Part shown: in pieces, positions 34,847-44,447 of the stretch | Layout of the letters: each line of letters starts with the position of its first letter | Position numbering within the stretch: position 1 is the first letter of the stretch | DNA from: a phage | Reading direction: 5' to 3' (one strand) | Sequence record: PX104378.1 | DNA: 64,000 bases | Translations under genes and position numbers: made by a program | The notes under the pieces: generated by a model | Seen by the model: the letters and a program-made list of their open reading frames with translations, nothing else | Told to the model about the DNA's origin: nothing | Database searches by the model: none

Positions 34847-34875
34847 ATTATAGGGGATCGATGATCCCCTGTCAA
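34847..34875 (-). promoter_or_regulatory. Early promoter cassette P1 (TTGACA-N17-TATAAT, GC palindrome in spacer)
   Basis: Minus strand TTGACAggggatcatcgatccccTATAAT then conserved leader gcacacataccgaaacgaa; drives 34598..34810. Confidence 0.6.
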
Positions 34876-37155: not shown

Positions 37156-37184
37156 ATTGTAGGGGAGTTATCCTCCCCTGTCAA
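37156..37184 (-). promoter_or_regulatory. Early promoter cassette P2 (TTGACA-N17-TACAAT, palindromic spacer)
   Basis: Same architecture upstream of 36864..37115; coords +/-2. Confidence 0.55.
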
Positions 37185-38192: not shown

Positions 38193-38501
38193 TCATTTAG
38201 ACAAATAATCATTCTGTGCAATCCGGTCGGCGTATGCTGGTGTTACGTCAATCGCAATCACTTTAACGCGTGCTTTCTTGCGACCTGGGTTTTCTCGTAA
38301 CCAGTGCTCATGACCGTGAACATTTTTATACTGCGATGCTTCTTCGAAGGTACGGATCGGACCTGGGTAATCAGCGTAAAGGATCTCTAGATCTTCGGTG
38401 ATGTAAAAATATACATCGTAATTGCTGTTCTCTAGCTTAAGCAGAGACTTTCGGAACATTGGGAGATTTTCGCGGGTAAATTCAAAGATATTATCTTTCA
38501 T
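38193..38501 (-). CDS. HxHxHW-family small protein (paralog 1 of 6)
   Basis: 102 aa; YDVYFYITEDL ... HGHEHWL ... VIAIDV; terminator downstream. Confidence 0.65.
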   Translation of the reverse strand: MKDNIFEFTRENLPMFRKSLLKLENSNYDVYFYITEDLEILYADYPGPIRTFEEASQYKNVHGHEHWLRENPGRKKARVKVIAIDVTPAYADRIAQNDYLSK

Positions 38502-38524
38502 AGTATTATCCTCAATAGTTGGAT

Positions 38525-38546
38525 GAAAAGGGGGCTTAACGCCCCC
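38525..38546 (-). terminator. Intrinsic terminator after 38552..38839
   Basis: Minus-strand hairpin GGGGGCG-TTAA-GCCCCC followed by TTTTC. Confidence 0.55.
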
Positions 38547-38551
38547 ATATA

Positions 38552-38839
38552 TTAAAACAGTCCTTCTTGTACGCCGTAGTAGAGTTCGTCGCTGATAATT
38601 TCATTAATGCGACGGTGTGCATATTCCTGATTTGCGAAGTTGTCAGCAAGTTCTACTTTAGTTTCGCCGTCATGAGTCCATTTAGTGATAACTTTACCAT
38701 CTGCAAATTTGAAGTTGAACTCTTTAGCTACTGCATCGCGTACCAGACGTGCAAACTTGTTGTTACGGATTGCATTATCGGTTTCGTGTGCAGCGTGAGC
38801 AAATTTGTTAACTTTCAGCGTGATAGTGATGTATGCCAT
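38552..38839 (-). CDS. Small early protein
   Basis: 95 aa; ATG with SD downstream of promoter cassette; terminator downstream. Confidence 0.6.
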   Translation of the reverse strand: MAYITITLKVNKFAHAAHETDNAIRNNKFARLVRDAVAKEFNFKFADGKVITKWTHDGETKVELADNFANQEYAHRRINEIISDELYYGVQEGLF

Positions 38840-38885
38840 AATTTGATTCTCCTAGTTAGAAAGTGTATCTCGTTTCGATGGGTGT

Positions 38886-38914
38886 ATTATGCTATACACC
38901 CGATCTTATGTCAA
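38886..38914 (-). promoter_or_regulatory. Early promoter cassette P6 (TTGACA-N17-CATAAT)
   Basis: Upstream of 38552..38839. Confidence 0.55.
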
Positions 38915-38920
38915 CACTTT

Positions 38921-39199
38921 TTATAAAATAATTTTTTGATATTTTTCTATGATGTTCGTGTAATCCACATCAACCGCTATCACCGTTGCTTCGAATCCAC
39001 CGTTTAGCCAATGGCTATGGTCATGATCGTGAAAGAAACCAAGACCAGTACGAAGACCTTCTTTATATTCGGCGCGTACATTTAGATCATCATCGATAAA
39101 CAGATAAAACCATGAATTTTTACTAGGATTGATGATACAACCTTTCAGATTAGGGAGAATATCACGACTAAGAATAAACTTATCACCTACTTTGAACAT
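38921..39199 (-). CDS. HxHxHW-family small protein (paralog 2)
   Basis: Start trimmed to ATG with SD GAGGA (table start is GTG); WFYLFIDDDL ... HDHDHSHWL ... VIAVDV. Confidence 0.65.
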   Translation of the reverse strand: MFKVGDKFILSRDILPNLKGCIINPSKNSWFYLFIDDDLNVRAEYKEGLRTGLGFFHDHDHSHWLNGGFEATVIAVDVDYTNIIEKYQKIIL

Positions 39200-39203
39200 A
39201 ATA

Positions 39204-39524
39204 TTAGTCCTCACTTATAAGGTCAAACCAATTGTTTTTCGCATAATGCTTAATGCGTGCTTGATCTGCTTCTGCTGGTGATAGATTCCATGCAACCACT
39301 ACAACTTCTGACGCATCGTCATCCGTTTCTGATACCCAATGATTATGATTCATACAATTGTTTGCTATCGCGTGAGCAAATGATTTCATCACTGGAGACG
39401 TATAATCATAGTAACGGATTTTCAGATTTTCATCAACGTACAAATAGATCGTATAAGGTTTATATTCAGTAACCAGTAACAGACAGTTACGCAATTCTGG
39501 GAAAATATTTTTAGTTAATTTCAT
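39204..39524 (-). CDS. HxHxHW-family small protein (paralog 3)
   Basis: 106 aa; TIYLYVDENL ... NHNHWV ... VVVAWN; ATGA coupling to upstream gene. Confidence 0.6.
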   Translation of the reverse strand: MKLTKNIFPELRNCLLLVTEYKPYTIYLYVDENLKIRYYDYTSPVMKSFAHAIANNCMNHNHWVSETDDDASEVVVVAWNLSPAEADQARIKHYAKNNWFDLISED

Positions 39525-39727
39525 ATTCTAGTTCTCCGTAATACACGGTAATCCATTTTTTCTTCATACTTTGTATCTTTCCAACACACAATCCCGTTTA
39601 CTGTGCAATCTTTGGAATTGACGAATGATTCATATTGTTCTGCATCTTCCATCATTGCATGAGCGGTCTTTTCATCGAATATATCGCAGATCGCTTTATA
39701 TGCTCGATAATCTTTAAATTTGCTCAT
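39521..39727 (-). CDS. MSKFKDY-family small protein (tandem paralog B)
   Basis: Start trimmed to MSKFKDYRAY; paralogous to adjacent 39730..39939. Confidence 0.55.
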   Translation of the reverse strand: MSKFKDYRAYKAICDIFDEKTAHAMMEDAEQYESFVNSKDCTVNGIVCWKDTKYEEKMDYRVLRRTRI

Positions 39728-39729
39728 AA

Positions 39730-39939
39730 TTAAGACCACTCAAGAGTTTTTGAAAACACATCTATCCATTGTTGAGTATATGCGGTTTCTTTCCATGATA
39801 CAATACCAGTCGAATAATGGTTTTTGTTTCCAGAAAAGGACGGGCATTTTGAGGCATCTTCCATCATCTTTTCGGCGAACTCTGGTTCGTATACTCGCAA
39901 GATCTGTTGATATGCTTTATAATCTTTAAATTTGCTCAT
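39730..39939 (-). CDS. MSKFKDY-family small protein (tandem paralog A)
   Basis: 69 aa; MSKFKDYKAYQQIL..EKMMEDAS; overlaps stop of upstream gene. Confidence 0.55.
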   Translation of the reverse strand: MSKFKDYKAYQQILRVYEPEFAEKMMEDASKCPSFSGNKNHYSTGIVSWKETAYTQQWIDVFSKTLEWS

Positions 39940-40204
39940 AATTGTTAACTACCTTATCAGCTTCTTTTATTGTTTTTACATCAACTGCGATAATCCGTAA
40001 AGGTTCGTCGAAGGTCCACCAATGATCGTGATTATCAGCTTGTGATTTATCACCAAAGGAATCACGAATATCATTTTTACATTTATAGCTAATGTGACCT
40101 TCATAGTCAACATAAAGGTAATTATCAAAAATCGGCGTTTTTAAGATCATACCGAAAAATCTTTCTTTGTGTGTCTTATCCAGCGTTGCAGTAATTCGCA
40201 TCAT
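39926..40204 (-). CDS. HxHxHW-family small protein (paralog 4)
   Basis: 92 aa; NYLYVDYEGH ... DNHDHWW ... IIAVDV. Confidence 0.65.
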   Translation of the reverse strand: MMRITATLDKTHKERFFGMILKTPIFDNYLYVDYEGHISYKCKNDIRDSFGDKSQADNHDHWWTFDEPLRIIAVDVKTIKEADKVVNNYEQI

Positions 40205-40216
40205 AATATATTCCTC

Positions 40217-40396
40217 TTAGAAAGGGATGGTCATTTCTTGAGCTTGTACATTCTCGTTAGGATTAAACTTCATCCAACCGATATTGTCTACCAGCATATG
40301 CACATTTTTATCATATCCTACGTGAGTAGTCAATACTGTATGTGCTTTACCTTCAACGATGATTTCCATGTACTTCTGAACTTCGATAGCTTTCAT
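40217..40396 (-). CDS. Small early protein (59 aa), not in ORF table
   Basis: ATG with SD downstream of promoter-like cassette; MKAIEVQKYMEIIVEGKAHTVLTTHVGYDKNVHMLVDNIGWMKFNPNENVQAQEMTIPF. Confidence 0.5.
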   Translation of the reverse strand: MKAIEVQKYMEIIVEGKAHTVLTTHVGYDKNVHMLVDNIGWMKFNPNENVQAQEMTIPF

Positions 40397-40428
40397 TTTG
40401 ATTCTCCGTTTGTTGTCTTGATGGGAGT

Positions 40429-40457
40429 ATCTTACTACTCCCTTTAATCATTGTCAA
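40429..40457 (-). promoter_or_regulatory. Promoter-like cassette P7 (TTGACA, weak -10 TAAGAT, palindromic spacer)
   Basis: Upstream of 40217..40396; degenerate -10. Confidence 0.4.
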
Positions 40458-40460
40458 CGA

Positions 40461-40628
40461 TTATTTGTTAATTTCCGGTGCGTTGCTTGGATAGTAACCT
40501 TCTTTAACACCCAGATATTTTGCAACCATTCCGGTGATCTTCTGTGCTACTACGATATCGAATTTCAGGTAGTCTTCACCGTGGTTTGCTACAATGTATG
40601 CTTCGCATTCTGCTTTAGTCTGGAACAT
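40461..40628 (-). CDS. Small early protein (55 aa), copy B of duplicated gene
   Basis: Start trimmed to MFQTKAECEAY (table start lies inside the promoter); near-identical to 37199..37366. Confidence 0.6.
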   Translation of the reverse strand: MFQTKAECEAYIVANHGEDYLKFDIVVAQKITGMVAKYLGVKEGYYPSNAPEINK

Positions 40629-40662
40629 TTTTGATTCTCCTATATCTCGTTGGTATGTGTGC

Positions 40663-40692
40663 ATTATAGGGGATCGGTGACCCCCCTGTCAA
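40663..40692 (-). promoter_or_regulatory. Early promoter cassette P8 (TTGACA-N18-TATAAT, GC-rich spacer)
   Basis: Upstream of 40461..40628; conserved leader. Confidence 0.55.
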
Positions 40693-40699
40693 CAACTTT

Positions 40700-41002
40700 T
40701 TATTCTTCGTCTTTATCTTTATATGCGTATTTCATAAATTTGTCTGCCACTTCGTCCGCGTTTTCAGGTTCTACGTCTGACGCTAGGACAACAGCTAGTT
40801 CGGTTTTGTCGTTTCCATCATACCAATGATTATGAGTGTCGTTTTCTTCGATATAAAACGAATCATTTGGATATGGGCGACAATATACGTCTAAATTCCC
40901 ATCGATATAAAAGATCCAATCCGAATACAAAATGATTGTTTTAGCCAGATTTTTATTGTCTCTTACAAAAGGTTCCGCGACAAATAGCTTAGTTTGTTCC
41001 AT
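40700..41002 (-). CDS. HxHxHW-family small protein (paralog 5)
   Basis: Start trimmed to ATG after SD GAGGAG (MEQTKLF); IFYIDGNLDV ... DTHNHWY ... VVLASDV. Confidence 0.6.
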   Translation of the reverse strand: MEQTKLFVAEPFVRDNKNLAKTIILYSDWIFYIDGNLDVYCRPYPNDSFYIEENDTHNHWYDGNDKTELAVVLASDVEPENADEVADKFMKYAYKDKDEE

Positions 41003-41018
41003 AGTAATCTCCTCAAAA

Positions 41019-41210
41019 TTATACAACTTCGTAAACTTCCCAATGTCCAACACCGGAACGCTTAACGAAAAGGTTTTCTTTGATGTTATTCATAAACGTC
41101 TGGATGGATTTAATGCGGTTGGAAGGTTTCCAGTCTTCGTTGGCATTGCGGCGATACATAATAACATTACCAGTTCTCTTATATTCAGCAACCATTTTAA
41201 GACCACACAT
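41019..41210 (-). CDS. Small hypothetical protein
   Basis: 63 aa; ATG with SD GAGGA. Confidence 0.45.
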   Translation of the reverse strand: MCGLKMVAEYKRTGNVIMYRRNANEDWKPSNRIKSIQTFMNNIKENLFVKRSGVGHWEVYEVV

Positions 41211-41267
41211 AATATTATCCTCAATTTATGGGAGAGTATTACCCCTCCCAATGATTGTTATATTACA

Positions 41268-41588
41268 TCACACAAAATGGCGTTTCAATGCTTCTTTTGC
41301 GGTTCCGCTAAGACTTTCGATCTCGCCTGGCATAACATCAACTGCCAGAACTTCTACAACATCCTCTGACCCCAACCAGTGAGTATGACCTTTGTAGAAC
41401 TTGATAACCAGACTACCTTCCTCATCCCATTTAACGCTATCGCTAGCCCACCACACATCACCGTCGATAAAGTTGATGTAAAGCACACTACGCCACATTG
41501 AATTAATTACTTTCAATACTGCGCCTTTCATATCTTCCACGGTGTGGTCTTCCATTTTGAAGACCTCGCCTACCTGAACTTTTGCCAT
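41268..41588 (-). CDS. HxHxHW-family small protein (paralog 6)
   Basis: 106 aa; LYINFIDGDV ... GHTHWL ... VLAVDV; ATG with SD AGGTGA. Confidence 0.65.
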   Translation of the reverse strand: MAKVQVGEVFKMEDHTVEDMKGAVLKVINSMWRSVLYINFIDGDVWWASDSVKWDEEGSLVIKFYKGHTHWLGSEDVVEVLAVDVMPGEIESLSGTAKEALKRHFV

Positions 41589-41605
41589 TTAGTCACCTCT
41601 CTTTA

Positions 41606-41785
41606 TTACATAACAATCACGCCAGCCGTTGAAAGTTGATGTTTCAACTGAGCATTTTCTGCTACTGTCAAATCAATGATTTCTTGTGACGCTGCAATCA
41701 TATAACCATTGGTGATATTGTTTTGCATCAGTTCAATGGTTTCTTCGTTGTAGCGGATTTTAGCGATGATTTCGTTGAAGTTCAT
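41606..41785 (-). CDS. Small early protein (59 aa), not in ORF table
   Basis: ATG with SD downstream of promoter cassette; MNFNEIIAKIRYNEETIELMQNNITNGYMIAASQEIIDLTVAENAQLKHQLSTAGVIVM. Confidence 0.5.
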   Translation of the reverse strand: MNFNEIIAKIRYNEETIELMQNNITNGYMIAASQEIIDLTVAENAQLKHQLSTAGVIVM

Positions 41786-41819
41786 GTTTGATTCTCCTAG
41801 TTCGTTTCGGTATGTGTGT

Positions 41820-41848
41820 AGTATAGGGGATCACCGATCCCCTGTCAA
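41820..41848 (-). promoter_or_regulatory. Early promoter cassette P9 (TTGACA-N17-TATACT, palindromic spacer)
   Basis: Upstream of 41606..41785; conserved leader. Confidence 0.55.
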
Positions 41849-41861
41849 CAACTTTTTTGAA

Positions 41862-42338
41862 TTATTTTTCTTGATGCTCGCGCTCGTACTTTTCGAAATA
41901 AAATTCTACTGGCTGGTCGTGGATTGACAGTAAGCCAAAGCGTTTAGCCGCTCGCAACCCCATATTGCGCTGAATGTACTTCTGGAAGTTCTCGCGTATA
42001 CACTTACGCCAGTATTCTAAGCCCATACAGCTTTTATAAAGATTGCATTGCACACACGCCGGATTCATGTTATCAAGTATATCATGCTCCGGTTTATGCA
42101 TTCCTACAACCTTATACTTCCACGATCCATCATCATTACGGGCAATTCGTCCATTTTCATCATAGACTACTTTTGAGCGTCGTAATACTGGTTTGATGTG
42201 GTCTGCGTGCCAGCGATCCCCTAGTTCCTCGCCACAATAGGCACAACGTCCACCATATTTCATTTTCAGGATCTGGCGTTGCTCTTTCTTTGACAATTTT
42301 TTAGGTTTAGGGGCTTTCGCCCCTTCATTATCACACAT
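41862..42338 (-). CDS. HNH endonuclease
   Basis: 158 aa; CAYCGEEL ... HADHIKPV ... CVQCNLYK; 8-nt overlap with DNA ligase stop. Confidence 0.75.
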   Translation of the reverse strand: MCDNEGAKAPKPKKLSKKEQRQILKMKYGGRCAYCGEELGDRWHADHIKPVLRRSKVVYDENGRIARNDDGSWKYKVVGMHKPEHDILDNMNPACVQCNLYKSCMGLEYWRKCIRENFQKYIQRNMGLRAAKRFGLLSIHDQPVEFYFEKYEREHQEK

Positions 42339-43833
42339 CGAATACCTCTTTTACTGTATTTGCAGTGGTCTTGTCGTAGCGAATACGTTTGATGATCGGG
42401 AGAAATAAAGAGAACTCCGGTTCATCTTCTTTACGTGATTTGCTGCGGATATACCCGTTGCATGTCATCTCAATGACTTTTCCAATCAGGTTATGACGGT
42501 CAGCCCATAACATTTCTCGGTCAAGTTCATTTCGACGATCGAACGGAATTACACGTTCGATACCATCATCACCTTTTTCGGTTGTAGTGTCGGTTAATCC
42601 CGATCCGGTGTTAGTCATCATTCGTCCACACGCACTACGGACAGTAAAACCGCCTACCTTATTGGGGTCTTTACTATGCGGATATACATCAACAATTTCC
42701 GCGTCGAAGTCAATCACTTCTTTAAATTTAACCTGATCTTTACTACGGCGATCTTCAAATACACCATGCAGATTTTTAAGGATAATACCTTCTAAGCCCA
42801 TGTTTACATAGCGATGATATACTTCGCGAGCTTCATCGATATTGTTAACTACAGTATTTTCGATTATCTGAACACGAGGATCGTTAAGTTCTTCAACAAT
42901 CTGTTTTAGTTCTTCGAATCGATCTTTATATTGCTTCGTTGCTCTCTCGTTTCCGTAATACACATCACGGTCGATAACATCCCAGACAGTGTAAACAATA
43001 CATTGGGCTTCTTCTTTTGGAATAGTTCCTTTCAGTGATTTGTTGAGGATACCATTTCCGGTCTGACGATCCGCAACAACGGATTCTTTTACTGCTTCCG
43101 CTACTGGCGTTAATGGTATTTCCTCTTCTTCAAATATCCATGACAGAGTACCATCATAAACGCTCTCAACGAAGTTCTGCGCTGGTGTTTGCGAAAGGGT
43201 AGGCATATATACCAATTCGCCATCTAGAACAATTCCACGGCCTCGTAGACGCTCTAAAACAGAAAACAAATCATCCAGCCCCTGGTAGGTATTACCTGAA
43301 CGGGTATAGATTGCTAATGTTTCCCCGTCAATATCAGCCATACCACGAGCGCCATCACTTTTAAGCTGTGCATATGCCGGATATTTGATATTAGCAATAG
43401 CCTTATCAGAATATGACGATGCAAGGTGGCATGGTTGCTGGGGGATCAGTTTCTTCCATACCTTGTTTGCAGTGGTAGCGGAACAACCGCATTCCAGATC
43501 ACGATTCAGGACCATCATTGCAACTTTAGCATCATCTTCTGACAAGCAAGTCAGAGTATCGGTAACTAGCTGTAATGCTGCATTACCAGTTACTTGACGC
43601 GTGGCAAGTTTATTTTTAAAGACCTGCAATGCACCGGATAAAGACAATACAGACGAATAGCGCGATGGTTTATCGTATTTCTTTACGCCAAACGTAACCT
43701 GTTTGCAATATGCCAGATAAAAGCATTCTTTCAGCGTTTCATTGCTTGCAGATTCTTTCAGGATCTTTTCTTTCAGCGATGTTTTGTCGGTCGCTGCAAG
43801 CTGGTTAATGATATTAAGAATTGACATTTTCAC
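42331..43833 (-). CDS. 30: ATP-dependent DNA ligase (gp30-like)
   Basis: 500 aa vs T4 487 aa; adenylation motif KSDGAR (KxDGxR); N-terminus colinear with T4 gp30 as recalled. Confidence 0.9.
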   Translation of the reverse strand: MKMSILNIINQLAATDKTSLKEKILKESASNETLKECFYLAYCKQVTFGVKKYDKPSRYSSVLSLSGALQVFKNKLATRQVTGNAALQLVTDTLTCLSEDDAKVAMMVLNRDLECGCSATTANKVWKKLIPQQPCHLASSYSDKAIANIKYPAYAQLKSDGARGMADIDGETLAIYTRSGNTYQGLDDLFSVLERLRGRGIVLDGELVYMPTLSQTPAQNFVESVYDGTLSWIFEEEEIPLTPVAEAVKESVVADRQTGNGILNKSLKGTIPKEEAQCIVYTVWDVIDRDVYYGNERATKQYKDRFEELKQIVEELNDPRVQIIENTVVNNIDEAREVYHRYVNMGLEGIILKNLHGVFEDRRSKDQVKFKEVIDFDAEIVDVYPHSKDPNKVGGFTVRSACGRMMTNTGSGLTDTTTEKGDDGIERVIPFDRRNELDREMLWADRHNLIGKVIEMTCNGYIRSKSRKEDEPEFSLFLPIIKRIRYDKTTANTVKEVFDV

Positions 43834-44293
43834 CTCGTTTTGTTAAACGTTCACGAATATCATTGAGGATACTACAAAATTCCGATTCGGTCAATATGGT
43901 CTTTAACGGATCAGTTCCACCTATGCTATGACGCAATTTCTTATTTCCGGTAGCGAGTAATGCTTTACAAAATTCTGGGTTATTCCGTGCCATCGTAACA
44001 AATGCCAGATGTACCAGTCTGTAATAATGCTCACTCATTCTATGAATCGGGCGACCCTGAAAATATAGCATGTGATTCTCTATCTTTTCAGCCCTTCCGG
44101 TTCTTTTTGCTTTGCCACCGTGCATCAAAAAGATTTCTCTTTGTCTCTGAGGGTTCTTAAATCTTAGCCCCTGTAAAAATCCTTCTGTGCTGTTAATATC
44201 GCAACCAAATAGACGGAATGGTCTTTTATTGAAATTACTCAATTCACCCGATGGATAAGGTCCACCCGCATAGATATCAATTTCAGAAGTCAT
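43814..44293 (-). CDS. NADAR (YbiA-like) domain protein
   Basis: 159 aa; GELSNF..PF..G..FLQGLRF pattern typical of NADAR/DUF1768 N-glycosidase fold. Confidence 0.6.
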   Translation of the reverse strand: MTSEIDIYAGGPYPSGELSNFNKRPFRLFGCDINSTEGFLQGLRFKNPQRQREIFLMHGGKAKRTGRAEKIENHMLYFQGRPIHRMSEHYYRLVHLAFVTMARNNPEFCKALLATGNKKLRHSIGGTDPLKTILTESEFCSILNDIRERLTKRGENVNS

Positions 44294-44447
44294 TGAAACT
44301 AATCTCGCTAATCATAGAGAACGGATCATAATCGTCATGAGGAATATCGATAGTAATCGAATGAGGATTTACCCATACACCAAACTGGTCTTCTTCGGTG
44401 AATACTTCGGTATGGATTTCGTGGATGTTTACATTCATAGTTTTCAT
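44283..44447 (-). CDS. Small hypothetical protein (54 aa), not in ORF table
   Basis: ATG with SD AAGGA; overlaps NADAR start by about 11 nt; MKTMNVNIHEIHTEVFTEEDQFGVWVNPHS... Confidence 0.4.
   Translation of the reverse strand: MKTMNVNIHEIHTEVFTEEDQFGVWVNPHSITIDIPHDDYDPFSMISEISFNDF

What the first reader, a model, noticed from the sequence alone, without database searches (positions are those of the whole stretch)
41862..42338. Free-standing HNH endonuclease immediately upstream of, and overlapping, DNA ligase
A 158-aa HNH protein overlaps the ligase stop by 8 nt. Free-standing HNH genes in T4-like phages are typically mobile homing endonucleases; here it marks the boundary between the conserved ligase and the hypervariable small-gene array, so it may contribute to that region's plasticity.
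Basis: partly seen in the sequence, partly recalled or inferred. Interest (0 to 1): 0.35.

Follow-up and report, generated by a model that had tools for sequence, protein, structure and literature searches.

The report
Fixed HNH nuclease gene after ligase
This is a real, intact HNH nuclease gene, the already annotated ORF212 of RB49-type coliphages, that follows the DNA ligase gene in every known relative, so here it behaves as a fixed, conserved phage gene rather than an actively jumping homing endonuclease.

Summary
A 158-aa HNH protein is encoded at 41862-42338 on the minus strand, and its ATG overlaps the ligase TGA by 8 nt. Both genes are on the minus strand, so the HNH gene lies downstream of the ligase, not upstream.

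The window is a Krischvirus (RB49-like) genome and the gene is RB49 ORF212, annotated "HNH endonuclease" in RefSeq.

- **Fixed in the lineage.** It sits at this site in all 59 Krischvirus records that carry the full ligase. A metagenomic relative in which both ligase and HNH are about 70% identical also keeps the pair.
- **Under constraint.** dN/dS is 0-0.06, the same as the ligase. All catalytic and zinc-binding residues are conserved.
- **Not a T4-type homing enzyme.** It lacks the NUMOD DNA-binding modules of T4 MobE and has no homolog in most other T4-like phages.
- **Mobile ancestry is plausible.** Relatives at 35-50% identity are scattered through other phages. They also show presence/absence between trbC and traN in conjugative plasmids.
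- **Array plasticity is already explained.** A PeSL promoter/stem-loop lies 13 nt after the HNH stop. PeSL recombination was shown experimentally at this locus (Arbiol 2010).

Verdict: ordinary and already known. The homing reading is not supported for this lineage, and the biological role remains untested.

The parts
41862..42338 (-). HNH nuclease gene (158 aa), equal to RB49 ORF212 / RB49p212 / phi1p212
   Evidence: ORF. Pfam HNH 27 bits. phrog_2118 E 8e-55. Annotated 'HNH endonuclease' in the RB49, Phi1 and JSE RefSeq records. AlphaFold model mean pLDDT 92.8.
42033..42245 (-). HNH catalytic core, residues C32-K102: zinc ligands C32/C35 and C95/C98, H44-A-D46-H47, N90, N99. Contains a variable beta-hairpin insertion (about residues 54-80).
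   Evidence: These residues are invariant in 35 family members. The model has a strand-strand-helix arrangement: E44-47, E53-57/E75-80, E91-94, H96-102. Best PDB fold matches are HNH nucleases, all weak with E >= 0.05.
42331..43827 (-). DNA ligase gene 30 (498 aa from the ATG at 43827; the ORF listing extends it to a GTG at 43833)
   Evidence: Pfam DNA_ligase_A_M E 5e-22. Annotated gp30 in RB49/Phi1/JSE. Same start in all relatives.
42331..42338 (-). 8-nt overlap ATGTGTGA (HNH start codon plus ligase stop codon)
   Evidence: Read directly. Invariant in 5 Krischvirus sequences. The 70%-identical relative L006 has a TAATG overlap instead.
42345..42351 (-). Shine-Dalgarno-like AAAGAGG, 6 nt before the HNH ATG, inside the ligase coding sequence
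   Evidence: Sequence. A ribosome_binding_site is annotated at the same place in phage Ec_Makalu_002.
42310..42323 (-). GC-rich hairpin GGGGC-GAAA-GCCCC, starting 13 nt after the HNH ATG. It lies inside an 8-codon insert (DNEGAKAP) that the 70% relative lacks. Function unknown.
   Evidence: Fold of 42270-42375, z = -2.44. Invariant in Krischvirus. Absent from L006.
41820..41848 (-). PeSL (early promoter with stem-loop): TTGACA-GGGGATCGGTGATCCCC-TATACT, with an A/T-rich stretch upstream. It lies 13 nt after the HNH stop and is likely the terminator/attenuator of the ligase-HNH transcript and the promoter of the small-gene array.
   Evidence: Pattern search: 7 matches against 0.31 expected. Best sigma-70 match in the region, 11/12. 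Hairpin in the centroid fold. Fits the PeSL description in PMC2839356.
41606..41785 (-). First gene of the variable array (59 aa, RB49 ORF209-like). ORFan210 and ORF211 of phi1/RB49 are absent here.
   Evidence: phrog_14803. Comparison with RB49, Phi1, JSE and Makalu_002.

Best explanation
The feature is ORF212 of RB49-type (Krischvirus) phages. It encodes a small zinc-stabilised beta-beta-alpha-metal (HNH, PF01844, McrA/Cas9-like) nuclease.

Expression (inferred from sequence): it is the last gene of the 30.3-30 (ligase) transcription unit. It is translated by coupling to the ligase through the ATGTGTGA overlap and its own AAAGAGG ribosome-binding site. The unit is closed by the PeSL stem-loop 13 nt after its stop codon.

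Activity (inferred): the catalytic D46-H47, N90 and N99 and the four zinc cysteines are intact, so the protein most likely nicks or cuts DNA.

Evolution (shown): the gene is fixed and inherited vertically with the ligase under strong purifying selection.

Origin (inferred): its family is scattered through unrelated phages and conjugative plasmids, so it probably entered as a free-standing mobile HNH gene. It has since been retained because it is useful to the phage, or because it still gives its carrier an advantage in mixed infections.

It is not needed to explain the plasticity of the neighbouring gene array, which is accounted for by PeSL-mediated recombination.
For: Identity:
- Pfam HNH above threshold and phrog_2118 at E 8e-55.
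- Catalytic and zinc residues invariant in 35 homologs.
- Confident model, pLDDT 92.8. The best PDB fold neighbours are the Gme HNH nicking endonuclease, Cas9 HNH domains and Cap5, all weak at E >= 0.05.

Fixation:
- Present at 96.6-100% nucleotide identity next to the ligase in 59/59 Krischvirus records.
- The 60th ligase match is a 1.5-kb RB49 fragment that ends before the site.
- Also present in IMG/VR and metagenome Krischvirus contigs.

Constraint:
- Makalu_002 differs at 16 synonymous and 0 non-synonymous sites.
- dN/dS is 0-0.06, against 0.016-0.07 for the ligase.

Depth:
- Contigs L006/L007 have a ligase C-terminus at about 70% aa identity and an HNH at about 70%, still abutting.
- dN to L006 is 0.26 for HNH and 0.22 for the ligase.

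Expression context:
- No strong sigma-70 site or TATAAATA late promoter lies upstream of the gene.
- The PeSL lies directly downstream.

Family mobility:
- Homologs at 35-50% identity lie in unrelated contexts in siphoviruses and in Morganella phage vB_Mm5.
- 2683 plasmid records hold a homolog, 2434 of them conjugative.
- There is presence/absence between trbC and traN in F-type plasmids.
Against: - No biochemical or genetic data exist for this protein or for any close homolog found here, so nuclease activity and the biological role are inferred.
- Fixation with purifying selection does not by itself exclude an endonuclease that still homes into rare, unsampled HNH-less relatives.
- GC3 of the gene (0.44) is somewhat higher than that of neighbouring core genes (0.32-0.37), a weak hint of foreign origin.
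- PDB fold matches are weak (best E 0.049).
Confidence: 0.75

Rival explanations
1. It is an active, selfish free-standing homing endonuclease. It cuts the ligase region of HNH-less relatives in mixed infections and is copied in by double-strand-break repair.
For: - It is free-standing and wedged against a conserved gene.
- Petrov 2010 appears to list it among putative HEGs (that the 'other HNH' entry is ORF212 is my inference).
- The family shows presence/absence between conserved genes in F-type plasmids.
- A homolog at about 50% identity sits at a different locus in Morganella phage vB_Mm5.
- GC3 is slightly atypical.
Against: - No HNH-less allele was found among 59 phage records, 2 IMG/VR contigs, 3 metagenome contigs and 2 divergent contigs.
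- Divergence and constraint equal those of the ligase, with no sign of a recent sweep.
- There is no NUMOD, AP2 or other recognised DNA-binding module, unlike T4 MobE, and no similarity to MobE.
- True T4-type HEGs vary even between the closest relatives (PMC2993671).
Confidence: 0.15
2. The HNH nuclease contributes to the plasticity of the adjacent array, for example by cutting PeSL stem-loops or cruciforms and so starting PeSL-PeSL recombination and mini-circle formation.
For: - The gene lies directly beside a PeSL at the locus where mini-circles were observed (PMC2839356).
- There are weak profile matches to PHROG families named 'endonuclease VII', a structure-specific nuclease (phrog_1035 at E 1e-9).
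Against: - PeSL-mediated shuffling is reported for T4/PST and KVP40/nt-1 (PMC4122927).
- The HNH family was found in only 158 phage records, with only 60 Escherichia-named records against 336 Escherichia-named ligase matches. Most T4-like phages therefore lack it.
- Krischvirus has its own gp49 endonuclease VII.
- PeSLs are spread over the genome, not only next to this gene.
Confidence: 0.05
3. It is a functional partner of the ligase, forming a nick-and-seal pair for repair, recombination-dependent replication or programmed nicks. That would explain the coupled translation and co-inheritance.
For: - The start overlaps the ligase stop.
- The pair is conserved down to 70% identity.
- The two genes evolve at equal rates.
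- The nearest solved fold is a nicking HNH enzyme (4h9d).
Against: - Overlapping starts and stops are the norm in this gene block; 30.3 and 30 overlap as well.
- Other family members are not next to ligases.
- T4 and 77 distant T4-like ligase loci, together with the Aeh1-like loci, have no such neighbour.
Confidence: 0.05

Closest known systems
RB49 ORF212 (RB49p212, NP_891783) / phi1 ORF212 / JSE EpJSE_00219, annotated 'HNH endonuclease'
   Same: It is the same gene: 98-100% amino-acid identity, the same position after gene 30 and the same 8-nt overlap.
   Different: Only the last codons and the downstream cassette differ. The window and Phi1 end ...EHQEK* followed by a PeSL. RB49 and JSE end ...ENKE* followed by ORF211. 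The window also lacks ORFan210.
T4 Mob free-standing HNH homing endonucleases (e.g. MobE)
   Same: Both are free-standing HNH (PF01844) genes placed between genes of a T4-type phage.
   Different: MobE is 232 aa and carries a NUMOD3 DNA-binding motif. ORF212 has none, and there is no meaningful pairwise similarity (best E 0.017 over 38 residues at non-equivalent positions). Mob genes are patchy among close relatives (PMC2993671), whereas ORF212 is fixed.
Small stand-alone phage HNH nucleases such as Geobacter Gme HNH nicking endonuclease (PDB 4h9d), and Cas9/McrA-type HNH domains
   Same: They share the beta-beta-alpha-metal core and the CxxC...CxxC zinc site. These are the top PDB fold matches.
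   Different: The matches are weak (E >= 0.05, TM 0.3-0.5). ORF212 has a ~27-residue beta-hairpin insertion and a conserved C-terminal helical extension (W110-R111 ... F146-Y-F148-E149) that has no solved counterpart. It is not next to terminase genes.
HNH genes of conjugative plasmids (between trbC and traN in pSLT-type IncF, between traX and traY in I-type, in IncHI2; pHCM1 HCM1.27c)
   Same: They belong to the same protein family at 38-45% identity over about 85% of the length. The RB49 RefSeq note itself cites HCM1.27c.
   Different: They sit in plasmid transfer operons rather than a phage early operon, and they show presence/absence polymorphism there, unlike in Krischvirus.
T4 endonuclease VII (gp49)
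   Same: Similar size (157 aa) and a zinc-bound HNH-like core. There are weak PHROG 'endonuclease VII' matches.
   Different: There is no Pfam Endonuclease_7 hit and it is not among the top 50 PDB fold matches. Krischvirus encodes its own gp49 ortholog (44.6% identical to T4 gp49).

Membership tests
HNH / beta-beta-alpha-metal nuclease superfamily (Pfam PF01844) | Profile match above the curated threshold | tested here: met
   27 bits against a cut-off of 21.4, E 5e-6. Only the N-terminal half of the profile aligns, because an insertion splits the motif. phrog_2118 E 8e-55.
HNH / beta-beta-alpha-metal nuclease superfamily (Pfam PF01844) | Catalytic D-H, structural N and metal-binding N/H, plus a CxxC...CxxC zinc site | tested here: met
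   C32, C35, H44, D46, H47, N90, C95, C98 and N99 are invariant in 35 sequences.
HNH / beta-beta-alpha-metal nuclease superfamily (Pfam PF01844) | Beta-beta-alpha fold | tested here: met
   Model pLDDT 92.8 with strands followed by helix 96-102. Best PDB neighbours are all HNH nucleases, but with weak scores.
HNH / beta-beta-alpha-metal nuclease superfamily (Pfam PF01844) | Metal-dependent DNA cleavage or nicking | not testable with these tools
   Needs purified protein.
Free-standing homing endonuclease gene (T4 mob/seg type) | Sporadic presence/absence among closely related genomes at an otherwise conserved site | tested here: not met
   Present in 59/59 Krischvirus records (about 53 distinct phages once six GenBank/RefSeq duplicates are removed) and in all related contigs.
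Free-standing homing endonuclease gene (T4 mob/seg type) | Nuclease domain joined to a sequence-specific DNA-binding module (NUMOD, AP2, HTH) | tested here: not met
   No Pfam domain other than HNH. T4 MobE scanned the same way shows NUMOD3. The conserved C-terminal helices could still bind DNA, so this applies to recognised modules only.
Free-standing homing endonuclease gene (T4 mob/seg type) | Cleaves the endonuclease-lacking allele and is inherited above Mendelian frequency in crosses | not testable with these tools
   No HNH-less allele is known, and the test needs a constructed deletion and mixed infections.
Free-standing homing endonuclease gene (T4 mob/seg type) | Family members occupy different intergenic sites in different elements | tested here: met
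   Different contexts in vB_Mm5, Sasha, eiAU, HK225 and Bas78 and in plasmids. Presence/absence between trbC and traN.
Terminase-associated HNH (HK97 gp74 type) | Gene adjacent to terminase or portal genes | tested here: not met
   The neighbours are the ligase and small ORFans. Only the Bas78 homolog lies near a terminase gene.
T4 endonuclease VII (gp49) | Orthology to gp49 or substitution for it | tested here: not met
   Krischvirus has a separate full-length gp49 homolog. No Endonuclease_7 Pfam hit.
PeSL element (for 41820-41848) | Consensus sigma-70 promoter combined with a G-run/C-run stem-loop and an A/T-rich upstream tract, at an ORFan boundary in a hyperplastic region | tested here: met
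   TTGACA-17 nt-TATACT with GGGGATC...GATCCCC in the spacer. Matches the description in PMC2839356. Promoter and terminator activity were not tested here.

The most novel reading that the evidence does not exclude
ORF212 may be a structure- or site-specific nickase with a dedicated phage function linked to its neighbours. One possibility is that it cuts PeSL hairpins or cruciforms and so starts the cassette excision and mini-circle formation seen at this locus. Another is that it makes nicks that the co-translated ligase reseals. More broadly, the family shared by phage early operons and plasmid transfer operons may act on DNA that has just entered a cell.
Probability: 0.07. Interest if true: 0.6.

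Novelty: already known. Interest (0 to 1): 0.13.

Why it matters
It matters little beyond correct annotation. The useful points are these:
- A free-standing HNH gene in a T4-type phage should not be called a homing endonuclease by default. This one is fixed and as constrained as the essential ligase beside it.
- The plasticity of the adjacent gene array already has an experimentally supported cause, PeSL recombination.
- The same small HNH family is very common in conjugative-plasmid transfer operons and has no assigned function. Anyone who wants to characterise it has a tractable phage model in RB49 or phi1.

Tried and rejected
- **Endonuclease VII substitute:** rejected. Krischvirus has its own gp49.
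- **Terminase-associated HNH:** rejected on gene context.
- **T4 Mob-like HEG:** rejected. No NUMOD module and no similarity to MobE.
- **Defence-system nuclease:** only marginal PADLOC matches to PtuB and Cas9 HNH cores, E >= 5e-4. NCBIfam matches are far below their cut-offs.
- **Solved structures:** sequence search of the PDB found nothing below E 0.19. Foldseek against the PDB found nothing below E 0.049. BFVD returned only unnamed or generic 'HNH endonuclease' and 'endonuclease VII' viral proteins.
- **Intermediate relatives or HNH-less alleles:** the IMG/VR scan gave only two near-identical Krischvirus contigs and four Aeh1-like phages with no HNH. The metagenome scan gave three 99% Krischvirus contigs and 77 distant ligases (at most 42% identity) with no HNH nearby.
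- **Apparently frameshifted copy (L022):** it has three 1-nt homopolymer deletions and an inverted junction. I treat it as a sequencing or assembly artefact, not a pseudogene.
- **Own promoter:** no strong sigma-70 or TATAAATA promoter specific to the HNH gene was found. MotA-type middle promoters were not scanned.
- **Literature:** searching for this HNH in F-type tra operons found nothing relevant.

Full report
**What the window is**

Megablast of 41000-44400 finds 60 phage records at 95-99% identity, all RB49-like coliphages of the genus Krischvirus (RB49, Phi1, JSE, GEC-3S and others). The best match is Shigella phage JK32 at 98.9%.

On the minus strand the gene order is pseT, cd, 31, a small ORF, 30.3, 30 (DNA ligase), the HNH gene, then an array of small ORFs.

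**Checking the observation**

The ORF at 41862..42338 (minus strand) encodes 158 aa.
- It matches Pfam HNH (PF01844) at 27 bits against a cut-off of 21.4.
- It matches phrog_2118 'HNH endonuclease' at E 8e-55.
- It has 179 database homologs at E <= 1e-5.

The ligase ORF ends at 42331. The HNH ATG (42336-42338) and the ligase TGA (42331-42333) lie in the string ATGTGTGA, an 8-nt overlap. AAAGAGG lies 6 nt upstream of the ATG.

So the ORF, its family and the overlap are real. The word 'upstream' in the finding is wrong in the gene sense. Both genes are on the minus strand and the HNH gene follows the ligase.

**Identity**

The gene is RB49 ORF212 (RB49p212, 'HNH endonuclease; similar to Salmonella enterica hypothetical protein HCM1.27c'), phi1p212 and EpJSE_00219.

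Petrov et al. 2010 list one 'other HNH' putative homing endonuclease gene in both RB49 and phi1 (PMC2993671, Table 5). I infer that this is ORF212. The other HNH gene singled out in RB49, ORF040, is unique to RB49 (PMC2839356).

**The protein**

An alignment of 35 family members shows these residues invariant: C32-A-Y-C35-G, H44, D46-H47, R53, N90, P93, C95, C98-N99, K102, and a C-terminal R111 ... F146-x-F148-E149.

This is the McrA/Cas9-type HNH signature with a four-cysteine zinc site. A variable beta-hairpin insertion (about residues 54-80) splits it, which explains why only half of the Pfam profile aligns.

The AlphaFold model is confident (mean pLDDT 92.8, pTM 0.81). Foldseek against the PDB returns only weak matches, and the best are all HNH nucleases: the Gme HNH nicking endonuclease 4h9d, Cas9 HNH domains and CBASS Cap5, with best E 0.049. 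Sequence search of the PDB finds nothing significant. BFVD gives only generically named viral HNH proteins.

The catalytic machinery is intact, so nuclease activity is the reasonable inference. It is not shown.

**Is it mobile in this lineage?**

Presence:
- The HNH DNA is found in 59 phage records, each time next to the ligase, at 96.6-100% identity.
- The ligase is found full-length in the same 59. The 60th near-identical match is a 1.5-kb RB49 fragment (AJ550428) that does not reach the site.
- Six records are GenBank/RefSeq duplicates, so about 53 distinct phages all carry the gene.
- It is also present in two IMG/VR contigs and three metagenome contigs of Krischvirus.
- One of those, L022, has three single-base homopolymer deletions and an inverted junction. 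I read that as a sequencing or assembly artefact.

Constraint:
- Many genomes differ by 10-16 nucleotides yet encode an identical protein.
- Nei-Gojobori estimates give dN/dS of 0-0.06 for HNH, 0.016-0.07 for the ligase and 0-0.08 for 30.3, with similar dS.

Depth:
- Two metagenomic contigs (L006/L007) carry a ligase C-terminus about 70% identical and, abutting it with a TAATG overlap, an HNH protein about 70% identical.
- dN to L006 is 0.26 for HNH and 0.22 for the ligase.

The pair has therefore been inherited together well beyond the sampled genus, at equal rates. A selfish gene that had merely reached fixation would be expected to decay. This one is as constrained as an essential neighbour.

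**Beyond the lineage**

- T4 has alt.1 and alt after gene 30, not an HNH.
- Four Aeh1-like phages and 77 distant T4-like ligase loci have no homolog nearby.
- Only 158 of 50,697 phage records hold a homolog. Only 60 of these are Escherichia-named records, against 336 Escherichia-named records with a ligase match. Most T4-like coliphages therefore lack the family.
- The nearest non-Krischvirus phage copy is in Morganella phage vB_Mm5, also Straboviridae, at about 50% identity. It sits at a different locus near td and regB.
- Other homologs (35-45% identity) lie in early or replication regions of siphoviruses: Sasha, eiAU, the HK225 nin region, and Bas78 upstream of terminase.
- The family is very common on plasmids: 2683 records, 2434 of them conjugative.
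- Plasmid contexts include trbC-traN in pSLT-type IncF plasmids, traX-traY in an I-type transfer region, and IncHI2 plasmids.
- At the trbC-traN junction many F-type plasmids lack the gene. The matched span is 1043-1062 nt, against 1518 nt in the query.

At the family level a history of insertion between conserved genes of mobile elements is well supported. In Krischvirus the gene is fixed.

**Comparison with known T4 homing enzymes and other HNH classes**

- T4 MobE, scanned the same way, is HNH plus NUMOD3. ORF212 has no such module and no meaningful similarity to MobE.
- It is not an endonuclease VII replacement. Krischvirus phage Delraymugoa has a full-length gp49 homolog 44.6% identical to T4 gp49.
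- It is not terminase-associated.
- PADLOC and NCBIfam give only marginal matches to HNH cores of PtuB, retron and Cas9 proteins.

**The boundary and the plasticity claim**

Thirteen nucleotides after the HNH stop lies TTGACA-GGGGATCGGTGATCCCC-TATACT (41848-41820, minus strand). It is a consensus sigma-70 promoter with a G-run/C-run hairpin in its spacer and an A/T-rich tract upstream. This is a PeSL as defined by Arbiol et al. 2010 (PMC2839356).

That paper showed PeSL-PeSL recombination and encapsidated mini-circles for ORFan210, the cassette that lies next to ORF212 in phi1 and RB49.

The alignment of five genomes shows exactly this pattern:
- All are collinear through the ligase and HNH.
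- The window, Phi1 and Makalu_002 end ...EHQEK* followed by a PeSL.
- RB49 and JSE end ...ENKE* followed by ORF211, whose 3' end carries the same AAAAATAATTCAAAAAAGTTGTTGACAGGGG sequence.
- In one search, 22 of 59 records match only from query position 17, which is consistent with the RB49-type end (the RB49-type sequences in the alignment diverge from the window there). The other 37 match the window-type end.
- The window lacks both ORFan210 and ORF211.

The HNH gene does mark the boundary. The documented cause of plasticity, however, is the PeSL. PeSL shuffling is also reported for T4/PST and KVP40/nt-1 (PMC4122927), in lineages that mostly lack this HNH family.

**Expression (inferred)**

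No strong sigma-70 site or late-promoter TATAAATA precedes the gene. The overlap and the ribosome-binding site indicate translation coupled to the ligase on the same early or middle transcript. The PeSL hairpin is the likely 3' end.

A conserved hairpin, GGGGC-GAAA-GCCCC, lies 13 nt into the coding sequence (z = -2.44). It sits in an 8-codon insert that the 70% relative lacks. Its role is unknown.

**Verdict**

The feature is real and correctly recognised as an HNH gene overlapping the ligase. It is an already annotated gene, fixed in the genus and under strong constraint.

The homing-endonuclease reading is a reasonable account of where the gene came from, but not of how it behaves in this lineage. 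The suggested contribution to array plasticity is unsupported, and a demonstrated mechanism already explains that plasticity. The actual substrate and biological role remain unknown and need experiments.

Noticed in passing
window 38193-41588 (minus strand): ORFs 38193-38501, 38921-39214, 39204-39524, 39926-40204, 40700-41053, 41268-41588: Six small proteins (92-117 aa) in the array downstream of the HNH gene are paralogs. They are 24-31% identical, with an invariant H-x-H-W motif followed by a (V/I)(I/L)A-x-D-V segment. PHROGs has them only as unknown-function families. The 'hypervariable array' is therefore partly a tandemly diversified gene family.
   Followed up: partly
window 39521-39739 and 39730-39939 (minus strand): Two adjacent ~70-aa ORFs both contain the stretch SKFKDY(R/K)AY near the N-terminus and look like another tandem paralog pair.
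   Followed up: no
window 34847-34875 and 37156-37184 (minus strand): Two more PeSL-type elements have the same architecture as the one after the HNH gene: TTGACA-GGGGATCATCGATCCCC-TATAAT and TTGACA-GGGGAGGATAACTCCCC-TACAAT.
   Followed up: no
window 41786-41861 compared with L016 (RB49), L017 (Phi1), L018 (JSE): The window lacks both ORFan210 (present in Phi1, RB49 and JSE) and ORF211 (RB49 and JSE). A single PeSL is left between the HNH gene and the ORF209-like gene. This is the product expected from the PeSL-PeSL excision described by Arbiol et al. 2010.
   Followed up: partly
window 42310-42323 (minus strand): A GGGGC-GAAA-GCCCC hairpin starts 13 nt after the HNH start codon. It is invariant in Krischvirus and lies in an 8-codon insert that the 70%-identical relative L006 lacks. 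It could be an mRNA stabiliser or attenuator, but this is untested.
   Followed up: partly
L100 3986-4405 (pSLT-type IncF plasmid), L102 3986-4435, L101 3878-4411: The same HNH family (38-45% identity) is embedded in transfer regions of conjugative plasmids. It occurs in 2683 plasmid records and is present or absent between trbC and traN in F-type plasmids. No function is assigned.
   Followed up: partly
L022 (MAVA01000210.1) 435-1029: This metagenome contig has a 99% identical ligase end. Its HNH gene carries three 1-nt homopolymer deletions, and its 3' part is joined to the ORF208/209 region in inverted orientation. This is most likely a sequencing or assembly artefact rather than a pseudogene.
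   Followed up: partly
window 43827-43833: the ORF listing starts the ligase at a GTG (43833, 500 aa). All annotated relatives start at the ATG two codons later (43827, 498 aa, MSILNIIN...).
   Followed up: yes
L001 6494-7009 (Morganella phage vB_Mm5): A 171-aa ORF annotated 'terminase large subunit' lies directly after the HNH homolog and before regB in a T4-like early region. This is probably a mis-annotation or a gene fragment.
   Followed up: no
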